Shown here piece after piece: positions 909 to 57,106 of a stretch of DNA of 64,000 bases. The stretch lies in the NCBI GenBank assembly GCA_951406725.2, contig OX597815.1:151094001-151158000 (forward strand). The letters run 5' to 3'. Within the stretch, counting starts at the first letter, position 1. Each line of letters begins with the position of its first letter. The stretch is from Octopus vulgaris (Eukaryota). The translations under genes were made by a program, and so were the position numbers. The notes beneath the pieces are model-generated. The model ran no database searches and was not told where the DNA came from. It worked only from the letters and a program-made list of their open reading frames with translations.

Positions 909-969
909 GATAACTGAAGAGATGGTGGCGTGGATTTCCACCTCGGCATCTGAAACTCGGAGTTTTATC
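909..969 (+). ncRNA. Minimal type-I hammerhead ribozyme motif
   Basis: Stem I GATAA/TTATC; CTGAAGA at 914-920; stem II GATG/CATC plus an extra T; GAAA at 952-955; palindromic stem III CTC-G-GAG; GUU site. Confidence 0.65.
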
Positions 970-1046
970 ATGGCTACCGAATAATTGTCACATAACATTT
1001 ACAGATATATATATATATATATATATATATATATATATATATATAT

Positions 1047-1169
1047 ATAATATCAAAGGGTAATCAGAAATATTTCTATTACCAGTGAGCTAGGGTGTAA
1101 AAAAATTTTAACATCCTAGGCCTTTGGTAATGGAAATTTTAAATATTTCTGCTTACTCTTTGATATTAT
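1047..1169. repeat. ~120 bp imperfect hairpin directly after (TA)n
   Basis: AATATCAAAGGGTAATCAGAAATATTT pairs with AAATATTTCTGCTTACTCTTTGATATT (2 mismatches); inner stems TTACCA/TGGTAA and CTAGGGTGT/ACATCCTAG. Confidence 0.85.
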
Positions 1170-1321
1170 TAATTATTGATAATTTTTCTGGATAGTTTTC
1201 GAATCGAAAGCCGGCATTTTACATACTGCCAACAAGGAGCTGCGCTTGGGCGACAGATTTGAAAAATTAGAATGTATAAGCACTGGATTGCCTCGTATAT
1301 ATATATTTAATCTAAGGTGTA

Positions 1322-1393
1322 CCTGCTGAAGAAGACTTCGCCTAGCAAATAATTTTATTTGCTAAAAAAAACGTCTGAAACCATTGATCCAGG
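1322..1393 (+). ncRNA. Hammerhead ribozyme motif (stem III mismatched)
   Basis: Stem I CCTG/CAGG; CTGAAGA at 1326-1332; stem II AGAC/GTCT enclosing a TAGCAAATA/TATTTGCTA hairpin; GAAA-CCATTGA-TC. Confidence 0.65.
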
Positions 1394-1813
1394 AGTTAGA
1401 TGTTATATGTTTTTATTTTTCATTCCCTTCGAAATGTTATCCCTAATAGTGGTTTGGAATTTAACTGTCCTCTCTAGCGTGCAAGGAATCCTATGATGGA
1501 TGCCTTTTATGTGTTTAAATGTACAATGTATATATATATATATATATATATATATATAAGGGGAATTTTCCGTGTATATTTGTCCTGTACTCTATTTTTT
1601 TGTTGTTTAAGAAAAATGTCCAGTTCTTTGGTTTTGTGTTTATGTTTTCGTTTCTCATTGTGTTCGACGTTTTTTTGGTGTCTTGTACCCATATATGCGT
1701 GTATATATACATGTAGAGGTAGGTACGTACATATATGTGTGTATATATATATATATATATATATATATATATATATATGCATATGTTTTATTTATTAATA
1801 TATTATATATACA

Positions 1814-2180
1814 CAGGAGGCGCAATGGCCCAGTGGTTAGGGCAGCGGACTCGCGGTCGTAGGATCGCGGTTTCGATTCCCAGACCGGGCGTTGTGTGTG
1901 TTTATTGAGCGAAAACACCTAAAGCTCCACGAGGCTCCGGCAGGGATGATGATGATCCCTGCTGTACTCTTTCACCACAACTTTCAAAGTTCTTACTATT
2001 TCAAAGGGCCGGCCTTGTCACTCTCTGTGTCACGCTGAATATTCCCGAGAACTGCGTTAAGGGTGCACGTGTCTGTGGAGTGCTCAGCCACTTACACGTT
2101 AATTTCACGAGCAGGCTGTTCCGTTGATCGAATCAACCGGAACCCTCATCGTCGTAACCGACGGAGTGCTTCCACACCAC
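1814..2180 (+). mobile_element. tRNA-derived SINE (family D), CpG-rich
   Basis: A box TGGCCCAGTGG and B box GGTTTCGATTCC followed by a ~290 bp non-tRNA body; a related 3' part occurs near 51170-51250. Confidence 0.8.
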
Positions 2181-2422
2181 ACATACATATATAAACTATC
2201 AATTATTTCTCCTATATTGAAAAGAATGAAGTCTCTATAGGGTGGCCTAGATTTTCGGAAGTGAAAAGTACTAAGAATGGTCCGACTAGCCAATCACAAA
2301 CATTGGTATATAATCACACGAATGATAACCAGATCTATCAATCGATAATAGTGTAAAACTGGCGCAGATACCATATCCTCACGAAAATTTTTTTATTAAA
2401 ACAAATTTTTTGCAAACAGGCC

Positions 2423-2881
2423 TATATATATATATATATATATACATATATATACATATATATATATATACATATATATACATATATATATATATATATA
2501 CATATATATACATATATATATATATATATATATATATACATATATATATATATATACATATATATACATATATATACATATATATATATACATATATATA
2601 CATATATATATATATACATATATATACATATATATATATATACATATATATACATATATATATATATATACATATATATACATATATATATATATACATA
2701 TATATACATATATATATATATACATATATATATATATACACATATAAATACATATATATATATATATACATATATATACATATATACATATATACATATA
2801 TATATATATATATATATATATATATATATATATATATATATATATATATATATATATATATATATATATATATATACATAT
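2423..2881. repeat. (TA)n/(TATACA)n compound microsatellite
   Basis: Direct reading. Confidence 0.97.
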
Positions 2882-53699: not shown

Positions 53700-53865
53700 C
53701 ACAACAGGCTTCTTTCAAGTTCATTCTACCAAATCCAATCATAAAACTTTGGTCAGCCTGAGGCCAGAGAGAAGATGCTTGCGCAAGGTGCCACGCAGTG
53801 GGACTGAACCCAGAGCCATGCGGTTGGGAAGCAAACTTCTTACCACACAGTCATAGCCTGCACCT
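53700..53865 (-). mobile_element. SINE family A, 5' part
   Basis: Similarity to other copies. Confidence 0.75.
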
Positions 53866-55380
53866 ATTACTACAGGCTCTACCTTTCTTCCTGATTGAAA
53901 AAAAATTTTTTTAAATACCCACTGACCACCCCAAGTTTTTTTTTTCTTTCTTTTAATCTTTTCTTCCAGTCACTGATATGCATTTATTCAAGATGAGCAT
54001 CAATCACTTGCAGATTGCTCTCCCTGGTCTTGAGGGTACTTGCAAAGGCCATGGGTGCAATCAGAGTTTAAAGAAAGCCAAACAGACTTTAAATAACCTC
54101 AAAACCAAAAGAGCTAGTGAGAGAGGAAGAGAAGAAAGACTAAATACTATTAAATATTTATTCCGAAAACAGTCTACTGTTAAACAGACAGGTTATTGAG
54201 ATCATTAATTATGATGTAACTTTTGACTTAACTCATAGCAAAAACAAAACAAAATGAAAAAAAACAATTAAAAGCTAAACAGAAATGATTTTTAAAAATT
54301 CATCTTGAATCTAAATGCAAAAATAATTCTGGCTTCAGTTTTTAGAAAAGAAAAAAAAACCTCCCCACAGGGTTTCAAATTACACAAGTCCTTTTCTAAA
54401 GAAATCAATTTCCAATCTCCAAAGAAGAAAGAAAATATTATTATGATTATTGTTATTCATCATAATCATCATCGTTATTATTGTTTTTGTTGTTGTTATA
54501 AAATAAACTTGCTTTAAAAAAAGAATCAATTTTCTATTTTAACTTTTTTTAAAATTTTCATTTATTTATATGTGTGTGTGTGGGTGAGTGTGTGTATACG
54601 ACTGTGTGTGAGTGTGTGTGTTATAAGTTTCCAACCAAGAATCAATTTTAACGTGTGTAGATGTGCACACATTTAAGAGGAATATGCACACATCAAGACA
54701 GGCACATACACAACCACCCTCCCCCCCCACACACACACACATAAATATTATATGCAGCAGGTACAAGAACACAGCCACACATACATTCACTGTTTAGCTG
54801 GTATATGCACACATCCACACACACACACACACACAATGTTTTGCAGCAGCATGCACATAGTCATACGCCCTCACCACACATGCACACATACACACACACA
54901 TACAAACACTATTTTGCAGCAGCATGCACAGTCATACGCCCCACCACAATCACACATTCACACACACACACACACATAAGCACAATTTTGTAGCAGCATG
55001 CACAGTCATATGCCCCCACCACACATGTGCACATACACACAAATACGCTTTGCAGTAGCATGCACAGTCATACGTACCCACCACACATGCGCATACACAC
55101 ACACAAACACATTTTGCAGCAGACATATGCCCCCACTACACACACACACACGACACATAGCAGGTGTATGCACAATGGCACAAAGACACAAGCATGCACG
55201 CACACACCCAATTATGTACAATGTTTAGCTGGTGCCAAATTCCAAATGTGTGCATGTTTGGCAAATTTGGAGCCGAAGCAGAAAATGAAAGATGACAAAT
55301 GAGGAGCTAAAAAATAGAAAACAAAAAATTTCAGTTTCTAAAGAAATGATAAAAAATTTGGTAAAATTAAAATTTGTCTT

Positions 55381-55717
55381 TACAGAGATGTACTTGCATA
55401 GCAAGTGACCTGATCTGAGATCATGTGCTGGAATGAAAACAATTGCAGTGTGGAAGGTGTTTATAAGCCATTTAAGAAACAGAAAAACGTTGTTAGATTC
55501 ACTTCAACATTTAAATTTAATTTGCCAAAATAGTTTTGTTGCTTTGAGACCGTGACCTGTTCACTGACAATATTCCGTGCTGCATCTCAGTGAACAGGTT
55601 GCGGTCTCAAAGCGATGAAAATATTTTGGCAAATTAAATTTAAATGTTGTAGTGAATCTAACGGATTTTGTGTGTTTCTTAAATAGCTTATAAACACCTT
55701 TCACATTGCAATTGTTT
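55381..55717. mobile_element. Penelope-like inverted pLTR pair with a variant HHR core
   Basis: Arms 55437-55567 and 55587-55717 with a 19 bp spacer; each arm carries GTGAACA-G-stem II-(G/A)AAA-..TATT-T-TGGCAA. Confidence 0.7.
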
Positions 55718-55744
55718 AAAATTTATCTTTCATCTTTAATTTGT

Positions 55745-55958
55745 TTCTTTTCTACTCTAGGCACAAGGCCAGAAATTTGGGGGGTAGGGAGCAAATCGAT
55801 TAGATCAACCCCACTACGCAACTGGTACTTAATTTATCGACCCGAGAGGATGAAAGAGTTGATCTTGGTGGAATTTGAACTCAGAACATAAAGACAGACG
55901 AAATACCGCTAAGCATTTTGCCCAGCATGCTAACGTTTCTGTCAGCTTGCCACCTTTC
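55745..55958 (-). mobile_element. SINE family B
   Basis: Family B block. Confidence 0.8.
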
Positions 55959-56487
55959 ATCATCATCATCATCGTTTAACGTTCGTTTTCCATGCTAGCA
56001 TGGGTTGGACGATTCGACTGGGTGCTGGGCCCAAATATTCTTTTCTACTCTAGGTACAAGGCCCGAAATTTATAGGGAGGGGGTCAGTCGAAACAAGTAA
56101 AAGAGTAAACTAATGAATAAGGTGAATATTTATAATGAATTTGCCATTTTCGATGGATGCTTGTTTAGCACACACCTAGCACACCTGGAATATATGCCCT
56201 AGTGCAATGCATGCACCTATAGATGAGCATATATTCATTAGTGTGCACATGTGTAGGGAAGAGTTATTTTTTCAAGCATTATTTTAAAAGCATAATTAGG
56301 TTTAAGATATATGCTTAAATTAAATGGCTGTGTGGTAAGAAGCTTGCTTCCCAACCATACAGTTCCGGGTTCAGTTCCACTGTGTGGCACCATGGGCAAA
56401 TGTCTTCTACTCTAGCCTCGGATCGACCAAAGCTTTGTGAGTGGATTTGGTGGACGGAAACTGAAAGAGCTTGTCATGTGTGTATAT

Positions 56488-56921
56488 ATCACCTTGATCA
56501 CCTTGACCGACCAGTCCGTCAGGCGTCCATTTGACACCGCTGGTCACAGCACGCTGTCCACTCCTCTGTGGATCACGCCTTTCTCATCCACGTGATCCCA
56601 ATCGTCCTCCTGAAATCGTAACTCCACCGTCGTGGAGGTCTTCCGGGTGGCATCGACTGGCAAGGTGGTGTCAACATCAATGGTGAGCTCTTCACTCACC
56701 TCCGTTTCGCTGACGACATCGTACTCATCGCTGAAAACATGGATCAGCTTCCGACCATGCTGACGGAGCTCGACATCAAAAGTTCTGCAGTAGGTCTCAA
56801 GATGAACCGCATGAAAACAAAGTTCATGCGGTCAGCCAATGTACCAACAGGTCGAATGGTGATCGGCAGTGATGAAATAGAGGAGGTGAGGGAATATGAC
56901 TACCTGAGAAAGGAAGTAAAT
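56488..56921. mobile_element. RTE-clade LINE fragment with 5' inversion
   Basis: 56488-56651 minus: PPGRPPRRWSYDF..W.RKA C-terminus and (CAAGGTGAT)2 tail. 56652-56921 plus: INGELFTHLRFADDIVLIA..GLKMNRMKTKFM..YDYL. Confidence 0.85.
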
Positions 56922-57073
56922 GTGTGTGTGTGTATATATATATATATATATATATATATATATATATATATATAGTTTATCCAAACATGAAAACACAAAG
57001 AGAAAACATAACAACGCGAGGATGTGGAACAAGTATAGTGTTATTGGACGCTCAGGAAAGGAAAGAAAGAGAA

Positions 57074-57106
57074 TTTAACGTTTCGAGTAGAGCTCTTCAT
57101 CAGAAA
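57074..57106 (-). ncRNA. Minimal hammerhead ribozyme motif in a Penelope-like tail (56973-57185)
   Basis: TTT-CTGATGA-A-GAG-CTCTA-CTC-GAAA-CG-TT-AAA; palindromic AACGTT stem III. Confidence 0.7.

What the first reader, a model, noticed from the sequence alone, without database searches (positions are those of the whole stretch)
909..57106. Recurrent (TA)n | inverted repeat | minimal hammerhead | tail module from many unrelated families
Seen: HHR-like motifs at 909, 1322, 5372/7321, 26135/26528, 44199, 44787, 51947, 55522/55590 and 57074, plus decayed or partial ones at 21541 and 21785. Apart from mirror pairs they share little sequence, yet the intact ones have the core, stem I closing the ends, and a tiny, mostly palindromic stem III (CTC-N-GAG, CCA-T-TGG, ATCATATGAT, AACGTT, AAATATTT). 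Six inserts also carry an inverted repeat, and most sit in TA tracts. Known: Penelope-like elements carry minimal type-I HHRs in their pLTRs, thought to cleave as dimers, and often have inverted pLTRs. Inference: this genome hosts a very diverse and dense (about one motif per 5 kb here) population of ribozyme-bearing, TA-associated, mostly non-coding PLE derivatives.
Basis: partly seen in the sequence, partly recalled or inferred. Interest (0 to 1): 0.85.

Follow-up and report, generated by a model that had tools for sequence, protein, structure and literature searches.

The report
Hammerhead-tipped Penelope element ends, many families
The recurring motifs are real minimal hammerhead-ribozyme motifs at the ends of ten unrelated Penelope-like jumping-gene families, a known kind; the additions are a swapped G3-C8 core pair in a young protein-coding element and four protein-free units whose ends suggest they are likely moved by Penelope enzymes.

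Summary
Real, mostly known. Of 14 sites, 7 pass a strict type-I hammerhead scan (shuffles: 0.12 per window), 5 are point-decayed family copies, 21785 is a 3' half, and 21541 is not a ribozyme (its family's hammerhead lies ~290 nt upstream, outside this copy). All sites belong to dispersed repeat families. Four families run directly into Penelope-like ORFs: two Hydra-type (one intact, 711 aa), one Poseidon-type, one Neptune/Nematis-type. Four others are ORF-less 340-583-nt units, often inserted as more than one unit, with the Penelope signature (two fixed 3' ends, inverted partner). TA adjacency is family-specific. Intact motifs occur about once per 22 kb genome-wide (~1e5), not once per 5 kb. 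Minimal hammerheads in Penelope repeats, inverted copies, tails and (TA)n targeting are in print, including an octopus Hydra element, and this scan reported the kind in other genomes. Not found in the papers I could read: a natural G3-C8 core in a young coding element (974 exact copies), and insertion-signature evidence on the published open question of whether Penelope proteins move retrozymes. Cleavage and expression are untested.

The parts
883..1005 (+). 3' end of a Hydra-type PLE; hammerhead 909-969 (one C-to-T change at 11.1), short 3' end abutting (TA)n
   Evidence: in L060 the same end runs on into a PLE ORF start
1047..1537 (+). ORF-less ~460-500-nt unit; inverted arm 1047-1108; hammerhead 1322-1393 with a broken 15.2-16.2 pair in this copy; (TA)n on both sides
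5266..6350 (-). 5'-truncated copy (3' UTR, intact hammerhead 5372-5409, long 3' end with ~70-nt tail) of a young Hydra-type PLE with an open 711-aa ORF elsewhere
6344..7392 (+). inverted partner arm of the same insertion; intact hammerhead 7321-7358; short 3' end without tail, then (TA)n
21386..21634 (+). 3' piece of an ORF-less 583-nt unit plus 58-nt inverted arm; the motif at 21541 is not a hammerhead, and the family's hammerhead is absent from this copy
21678..21799 (-). 3' end of a family with a long-stem-II hammerhead; only the 3' half of the ribozyme remains; no ORF link found
26088..26516 (-). Poseidon-type PLE end: C-terminal endonuclease codons (26345-26516), A-box/B-box-like segment, (AAT)n, decayed hammerhead at 26135-26180
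26517..26623 (+). inverted arm of the same insertion; decayed hammerhead at 26528
43609..44562 (+). AT-rich element with internal (TA)n tracts; inverted arm 43609-43782; hammerhead remnant from 44196 (G12 changed, 10 nt deleted); no firm ORF link
44595..45032 (+). ORF-less ~530-nt unit (partial); intact hammerhead 44787-44860 with U10.1/U11.1 and a long stem II
51805..52110 (+). old (70-80% identity) ORF-less ~340-nt unit; intact hammerhead 51947-51992; 3' limit approximate
55386..55586 (-). 3' end with tail of a Neptune/Nematis-type PLE; decayed G3-C8 hammerhead
55587..55717 (+). inverted arm without tail; G3-C8 hammerhead from 55590, stem I cut to 3 bp
56976..57195 (-). ~235-nt element with fixed ends; intact minimal hammerhead 57074-57107; 3' end abuts (TA)n; no ORF link found

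Best explanation
These sites are the 3' ends of ten unrelated Penelope-like retroelement families, four joined to RT/GIY-YIG genes and four being ORF-less 340-583-nt units, each family carrying a minimal type-I hammerhead that would cut only as a dimer, and the single or inverted copies in this window are likely inert relics. Shown: motif anatomy, family membership, four ORF links, two fixed 3' ends per family, inverted partner arms, family-specific TA adjacency, copies longer than one unit. Inferred from published PLE biochemistry: the element protein nicks AT-rich or (TA)n DNA and starts reverse transcription at one of two sites just downstream of the ribozyme (the stretch between them is the tail); synthesis usually stops early, and a second priming event lays the inverted arm. 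Templates were mostly uncut RNA. The ORF-less units likely borrow the same protein and are copied from multimeric or circularised RNA, which the ribozyme would process.
For: Scan versus shuffles: window 6 vs 0.12; 1.2-Mb sample C3-G8 37 vs 0.3, U3-A8 15 vs 1.5, G3-C8 4 vs 0.6, the 13 other 3/8 combinations 18 vs 16.1. With the palindrome not required, 26 of 32 hits are palindromic; with stem I not required, 22 of 30 have 4 bp or more (shuffles 0 of 2.0). Whole genome: the core-plus-ACGT pattern has 20,431 matches vs 1,138 for the reversed control. ORFs: 3,356-bp tandem unit with open RT-EN frame; L060; endonuclease codons inside the window; RT/EN frame upstream of the G3-C8 motif in 4 of 5 loci fetched. 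Two 3' ends: 15 of 18 unselected copies of the 5372 family end at +42 or +108-110, the same two ends appear as loose ends onto (TA)n in public contigs, and likewise in the 909 and 55590 families. 78 of 103 unselected copies start upstream of the core and 4 of 103 start within 5 nt of the cut site (counted). Stem III as a hairpin is unstable at 37 C (+0.4 to +5.6 kcal/mol, or impossible) and negative as a duplex in the 9 of 11 references that could be scored. TA adjacency follows the published linker rule: Hydra-type 19 of 19 and 21 of 24, Poseidon-type 2 of 22, background 21.5% (PMC8557442).
Against: No cleavage or RNA data. Three families (21785, 44199, 57074) have no ORF link and no unit period. 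Absence of an ORF in the four units rests on 19-20 loci each, with 1.5-kb flanks; distant or opposite-strand PLE fragments occur in single loci of three of them (L084, L097/L103, L130, L206) and were read as unrelated neighbours. The 51947 unit is not TA-associated (3 of 19) and the linker-bearing G3-C8 family only moderately (8 of 19). Within-family covariation was not shown: differences among copies look like neutral decay. The youngest family has an A/A mismatch and only 2 bp at stem II, so it may cut poorly. Rfam gave no hammerhead among the 150 best-scoring of 427 matches listed.
Confidence: 0.88

Rival explanations
1. The ORF-less units are not mobile partners. They are locally duplicated or internally repeated terminal repeats of coding PLEs whose ORF I did not reach.
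For: Only 19-20 loci per family with 1.5-kb flanks were seen; the 2026 preprint (10.64898/2026.07.22.740005, Discussion) allows local amplification from one terminal repeat; the G3-C8 family also looked ORF-less until a targeted search found its parent.
Against: The sequence after the 3' end equals the sequence before the ribozyme, with one period per family. Copies longer than a unit sit on different contigs with different 5' ends (7 of 19 for 44787, 5 of 19 for 1322, 6 of 19 for 51947, 6 of 19 for 21541). The units give no profile hit and at most 74 stop-free codons.
Confidence: 0.2
2. The hammerheads are no longer catalytic in these elements. They persist as passengers or as protein-binding folds next to the reverse-transcription start.
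For: In the anole PLE, ribozyme mutants insert normally and no reads end at the cut site (PMC11167929). Here 5' ends do not pile up at the cut site, and the youngest family has a weak stem II.
Against: The 3-8 pair is kept as C-G, U-A or G-C across unrelated families while non-pairing combinations are at chance; altered GAAA controls fall to 0-3 hits. This pair is a feature of the catalytic fold.
Confidence: 0.2
3. The motifs are chance matches in AT-rich, repeat-rich DNA.
For: True for the 21541 look-alike and for about 2.4 of 56 sample hits.
Against: Enrichment of 50-fold or more over shuffles and 18-fold over the reversed pattern genome-wide; intact family copies.
Confidence: 0.01
4. Individual copies act as host-recruited ribozymes or as double-stranded RNA sources in neighbouring transcripts.
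For: Inverted arms up to 1 kb (5266-7392) would fold back if transcribed; about 1e5 motifs give many chances.
Against: 5 of 12 main window copies are decayed at core or stem III positions; in the youngest family only 6 of the first 100 listed exact motifs have a same-strand neighbour within 7 kb; no host gene was assigned.
Confidence: 0.04

Closest known systems
Minimal hammerheads (min-HHR) of metazoan Penelope-like elements (Cervera and De la Pena 2014, PMC4209133; parts 1-2 of 4 read, supplement file 2 searched)
   Same: Type-I topology, tiny palindromic stem III, many unrelated families per genome, mostly solo copies, opposite-strand pairs, U3-A8 variant, extra nucleotide after A9.
   Different: Per-genome number about 1e5 against 2,000-9,000 there (other descriptors; 120,000 are reported for the axolotl in PMC7229834); a G3-C8 family; G10.1-C11.1 in only 7 of 11 family motifs.
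Hydra-clade PLEs, including Hydra-1_Obim (Craig et al. 2021, PMC8557442; passages and supplement hits read)
   Same: RWK, DKT, CxCx5C linker, no cysteines inside GIY-YIG, (TA)n target, 3' hammerhead with odd palindromic stem III; an octopus member with hammerhead is tabulated there.
   Different: The 5372 family is a different, very young family (3,422 exact ribozyme copies); tails here are about 45-110 nt, not 30-40 nt.
Poseidon element of Anolis, PAc (Frangieh et al. 2024, PMC11167929; parts 1-2 of 4 read)
   Same: Two adjacent internal reverse-transcription starts that define the tail; AT-rich target; uncut RNA as template.
   Different: In the 5372 family the ribozyme and both starts lie upstream of the start codon, not in the ORF; C3G/G8C was an engineered rescue there and is the natural state of one family here.
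Non-LTR retrozymes (Cervera and de la Pena 2020, PMC7229834, passages and Discussion; Li et al. 2026 preprint 10.64898/2026.07.22.740005, part 1, passages and Discussion)
   Same: ORF-less units of a few hundred bases with a type-I hammerhead, in partial or full tandems.
   Different: Mostly dispersed copies of one to two units with PLE tail and inverted arm; palindromic dimer-type stem III; circular RNA not shown. Those papers infer PLE mobilisation from co-occurrence and phylogeny; the word 'tail' does not occur in the preprint.

Membership tests
PLE minimal type-I hammerhead | Conserved core with stems I and II closing as type I | tested here: met
   7 of 12 main window sites; intact copies in all ten ribozyme-bearing families and, at another place, in the 21541 family
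PLE minimal type-I hammerhead | Short palindromic stem III, unstable as a monomer | tested here: met
   6 of 6 window hits and 26 of 32 sample hits palindromic without being required; energies
PLE minimal type-I hammerhead | G10.1-C11.1 pair and extra nucleotide after A9 | tested here: inconclusive
   G-C in 7 of 11 family motifs, extra nucleotide in 3 of 11; A-U, U/U and A/A in the rest
PLE minimal type-I hammerhead | Self-cleavage as a dimer | not testable with these tools
   needs in vitro assay
Penelope-like elements (EN+) | Single ORF with RT and C-terminal GIY-YIG joined to the ribozyme-bearing end | tested here: met
   families 5372, 909, 26528, 55590; Pfam gave no hit for the 5372, 55590 and 26528 frames, so the call rests on motifs and 1,938 homologues of the 5372 protein
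Penelope-like elements (EN+) | Same ORF link for families 21785, 44199, 57074 | tested here: inconclusive
   no colinear ORF in 19 loci each
Penelope-like elements (EN+) | Partial tandems, inverted 5'-truncated partner, tail at one end | tested here: met
   L021, L022 and the window; inverted partner in 2-17 of 18-24 loci per family; two 3' ends; only one 3' end seen for 57074
Hydra clade (5372, 909) | RWK, DKT, CxCx5C linker, no CCHH cysteines, (TA)n target | tested here: met
   RWK 37, DKT 113, linker 562, no Cys within GIY-YIG; TA 19 of 19 and 21 of 24; the 909 ORF is broken and 36-51% identical to the 5372 ORF
Penelope/Poseidon clade (26528) | Cysteines inside GIY-YIG, no linker zinc finger | tested here: met
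   translations of L039 and L284; both copies are broken
Neptune or Nematis clade (55590) | CX2-5CxxC linker plus CCHH | tested here: met
   motifs at 395, 414 and 447 of a 524-aa open frame
PLE clades (all four) | Placement in an RT phylogeny with reference elements | not tested
   no reference set was held; Neptune and Nematis are not told apart
Non-LTR retrozymes (1322, 21541, 44787, 51947 units) | ORF-less unit of a few hundred bases with type-I hammerhead, in tandem | tested here: met
   periods 460-500, 583, ~530 and ~340 nt; no coding signal; two ribozymes in tandem in 2 of 19 loci each for 44787 and 1322
Non-LTR retrozymes (1322, 21541, 44787, 51947 units) | Canonical hammerhead with loop 1-loop 2 contact | not tested
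   stem sizes differ from the canonical 6 and 4 bp in most units; tertiary contacts were not examined
Non-LTR retrozymes (1322, 21541, 44787, 51947 units) | Expressed as monomeric linear and circular RNA | not testable with these tools
   needs RNA data from this organism

The most novel reading that the evidence does not exclude
This genome records Penelope proteins mobilising retrozymes. At least four ORF-less 340-583-nt hammerhead units spread as dispersed, more-than-unit-length insertions that carry the Penelope-only signature (two reverse-transcription starts, inverted partner arm), so they are copied in trans from multimeric or circular RNA. Beside them, a recently active coding element runs on a natural G3-C8 hammerhead, the first such core tied to an expanding element.
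Probability: 0.55. Interest if true: 0.6.

Novelty: new variant of a known kind. Interest (0 to 1): 0.4.

Why it matters
The kind is known, so the window mainly adds an example. Three points carry some weight. (1) Which enzyme moves animal retrozymes is named as open in PMC7229834 and in the 2026 preprint; units with PLE insertion hallmarks, next to a young element with an open ORF, make a trans-mobilisation test straightforward. (2) G3-C8 replaces G8, whose 2'-OH is the general acid; I found it in print only as an engineered partial rescue (PMC11167929, PMC8495972), and here it is the master sequence of a young coding element. (3) About 1e5 intact motifs in 2.8 Gb is a very high density, and a recent octopus repeat annotation never mentions ribozymes (PMC13282606).

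Tried and rejected
Rfam scan of the window: the listed hits were simple-repeat matches to microRNA models, no hammerhead among the 150 shown of 427. Pfam found nothing in three PLE frames or in the 164-codon frame at 25351-25845. Reading 21541 as a decayed hammerhead: rejected, since the same letters stand in 98%-identical young copies and the true ribozyme is elsewhere. Reading the 26528 family as a tRNA-headed SINE: not supported as such, because the segment lies inside a coding element's 3' UTR, Rfam gave no tRNA hit, ARAGORN found none at default and only noise when relaxed. A tail-only search for the 5372 family returned nothing. The tail-only search for the G3-C8 family returned mostly one junction with shared flanks (17 of 20 loci), so it was not used for end statistics. 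One search used a flank by mistake and was ignored. The idea that all short copies run off at a fixed transcript start holds at most in part: 5' ends cluster just upstream of the ribozyme in families 5372, 909, 55590 and 57074, but are spread in the ORF-less units, and 16 of 28 inverted pairs of the 5372 family have gaps over 400 nt. Expression: no RNA holder listed; contig depth was not used. Lunse et al. 2017 is not held, and the supplement of PMC7229834 and file 1 of PMC4209133 could not be read; they may already hold G3-C8 or octopus motifs.

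
Full report
Setting. The window lies at G000:C2:151094001-151158000 in a 2.80-Gb assembly of 227 contigs. It is AT-rich and full of TA tracts, LINEs and SINE-like repeats. The organism is likely an octopus (inference): a motif in a fetched flank (L104) shares stem II and stem III letters with the hammerhead tabulated for Hydra-1_oBim in the supplement of PMC8557442.

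Observation. All motifs are at the stated places. My scanner required the core, stems I and II and the 15.2-16.2 pair. It found 6 hits in the window against 0.12 in 200 block-wise dinucleotide shuffles; all 6 have a palindromic stem III. Allowing other 3-8 pairs adds 55590. Searches of the own genome returned about 40 scored matches for each of 11 queries, from 221 to 3,471 first-look candidates; 20-25 loci per family were fetched. Aligned copies show that 1322, 26135, 26528, 44199 and 55522 are decayed members of families with intact motifs and that 21785 keeps only the 3' half. The motif at 21541 is identical in young copies, lacks the core, and lies about 290 nt downstream of its family's real hammerhead, which this copy has lost. 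Six inserts have an inverted arm.

Genome-wide picture. I fetched 120 stretches of 10 kb at round coordinates. In these 1.2 Mb the scan gives C3-G8 37 (shuffles 0.3), U3-A8 15 (1.5), G3-C8 4 (0.6; one looks like chance) and 18 for the other 13 combinations together (16.1). This covariation across families is the main structural evidence; within families the differences look like decay. With the palindrome left free, 26 of 32 hits are palindromic; with stem I left free, 22 of 30 have at least 4 bp; changing GAAA leaves 0-3 hits. The 56 hits in 37 of 120 stretches extrapolate to 125,000 (bootstrap 83,000-176,000). Calibration is mixed: one generic pattern has 20,431 genome matches against 1,138 for its reversed control, predicting 8.8 in the sample, where 7 were seen; but the 5372 motif has 3,422 exact copies, predicting 1.5, where 6 were seen, and 7 hits come from one tandem array. 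About 1e5, or one per 20-30 kb, is the fair figure; the window is two to three times denser. Strict motifs in all fetched DNA fall into 41 clusters.

Links to coding elements. (a) 5372/7321: loci L021 and L022 hold a 3,356-bp unit with an open 711-aa frame. It has RWK, DKT, YRDD, a CxCx5C linker and no cysteines inside GIY-YIG, the diagnostics of the Hydra clade (PMC8557442). L022 reads (TA)n, short inverted arm, truncated unit, full unit, (TA)n. (b) 909: in L060 the end runs on into a broken ORF of the same type. (c) 26135/26528: the window itself holds the last endonuclease codons at 26345-26516, and L039 and L284 extend them into a Poseidon-type frame; this coding stretch has 2,596 candidates. 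(d) 55522/55590: a pattern just upstream of the motif has 625 exact matches; 4 of 5 loci fetched from close pairs hold an RT-endonuclease frame, open for up to 524 codons, with CX3CxxC linker and CCHH, ending 970 nt before the ribozyme; three of these loci are 97-99% identical. The core is G3-C8 in 59 of 62 held copies that matched the flanking motif, and one 40-letter form has 974 exact copies, some amplified as passengers of another repeat. No colinear ORF was found for 21785, 44199 or 57074.

ORF-less units. For four families the sequence behind the 3' end equals the sequence in front of the ribozyme, with one period each: 460-500 nt (1322), about 530 (44787), about 340 (51947) and 583 (21541 family). 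Copies longer than one unit occur in 5, 7, 6 and 6 of 19 loci (counted; for 51947 only those reaching beyond -250), on different contigs and with different 5' ends; two loci each of 44787 and 1322 carry two ribozymes in tandem, so the copy passes through an upstream cut site. The units have at most 74 stop-free codons and no hit to the PLE profile; as circles three of the four fold better than 25 shuffles (z -3.4 to -6.5), the old one does not. They end at two fixed places and often have an inverted arm. A 359-bp tandem array in the sample (L234: 5.6 units forward, 1.8 inverted, ends 47 nt apart, TA tracts on both sides) shows the same signature.

Ends and targets. In copies not selected by family (sample plus flanks of other families; both arms of a pair counted; copies starting over 20 nt past the cut excluded), 3' ends are bimodal: +42 (7) or +108-110 (8) of 18 for 5372; +89-95 (7) or the reference end +139-140 (11) of 19 for 55590; +45-49 (4) or +96-101 (4) of 9 for 909. 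Public contigs show loose ends onto (TA)n at both 5372 sites. This matches the two reverse-transcription starts that define the tail in PMC11167929, though the tails are about 45-110 nt. 78 of 103 copies begin upstream of the core and 4 of 103 within 5 nt of the cut, so templates were mostly uncut, as in that paper. A (TA)5 tract within about 300 nt downstream: 5372 19 of 19, 909 21 of 24, 1322 15 of 19, 44787 14 of 19, 57074 13 of 19, 21785 12 of 19, 21541 11 of 19, 55590 8 of 19, 51947 3 of 19, 26528 2 of 22, background 21.5%; 44199 scores 18 of 18 through its own internal tract.

Mechanism. Shown: anatomy, links, ends, periods. From PMC11167929 and PMC8557442: nicking of AT-rich DNA, internal initiation, inverted partner, linker-associated (TA)n bias. 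Inferred: the same steps built these inserts; stem III forms only between two ribozymes, which needs tandem units in one RNA. Among the first 100 listed exact 5372 motifs, 56 sit in tail-out inverted pairs and 6 in tandems of one unit length, so most copies, and all in this window, cannot dimerise in cis. Trans-mobilisation of the ORF-less units and RNA circles are inferred, not shown.

Prior knowledge. PMC4209133 describes the motifs, their diversity, solo and opposite-strand copies and U3-A8. PMC8557442 (as preprint) describes inverted copies, tails, (TA)n bias and an octopus Hydra element with hammerhead; it also reports non-autonomous head-to-tail Chlamys elements. PMC7229834 calls PLEs a strong candidate for moving retrozymes, and the 2026 preprint supports this by phylogeny. 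Natural U3-A8 is in PMC3088659 (passages). For natural G3-C8 I ran two full-text searches and read passages of the three papers they returned: only engineered variants. Lunse et al. 2017 could not be read; my recollection that it lists about 150,000 such variants comes from no call. Earlier notes of this scan report the same kind in other genomes, and G3-C8 candidates in phages and protist elements; I did not test them.

Verdict. The catch is real and the reading is right in kind, but the kind is known. The G3-C8 coding element and the PLE-signed ORF-less units lift it to a new variant. Interest 0.4.

Noticed in passing
window 26262-26335 (-): Segment with A-box-like and B-box-like motifs (box names recalled) followed by (AAT)n, between the stop codon and the ribozyme of the Poseidon-type element; many copies begin near it, so it may be an internal polymerase III promoter. 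No Rfam or ARAGORN tRNA hit.
   Followed up: partly
   Followed up: partly
L234:2097-4768 (G000:C1 near 20.00 Mb): 359-bp tandem array with a hammerhead of canonical stem sizes in each unit, plus an inverted arm, between TA tracts: a retrozyme-like array with PLE-type ends.
   Followed up: partly
L354, L356, L358-L373: One inverted G3-C8 insert with identical junction and flanks in 17 of 20 loci; it rides inside another repeat whose end resembles a Helitron terminus (recalled, untested).
   Followed up: no
L245, L250, L252, L260, L261, L272, L285, L293, L320: At least three U3-A8 hammerhead families; one resembles the G3-C8 family in stem II and stem III.
   Followed up: no
L054:1239-1697: A 909-family copy in which the first ~90 ORF codons join directly to the stretch before the ribozyme (implied unit 541 nt), possibly an ORF-less unit in the making; one locus only.
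   Followed up: no
window 7321-7358: The youngest family's ribozyme has only 2 bp plus a tetraloop in stem II with A opposite A at 10.1/11.1, letter-perfect in 3,422 copies; its activity is uncertain.
   Followed up: partly
window 18093-21212 (+); 2970-4400 and 7865-9450 (-); 12969-14447 (-): Several LINE reverse-transcriptase frames, one open for 1,039 codons with endonuclease and RT Pfam hits.
   Followed up: no
window 25351-25845 (-): 164-codon open frame that looks like a host exon; no Pfam hit.
   Followed up: no
window 56121-56202 and 57207-57288: 82-bp inverted repeat (96%) around an RT fragment and the 57074 insert; it belongs to another element.
   Followed up: no
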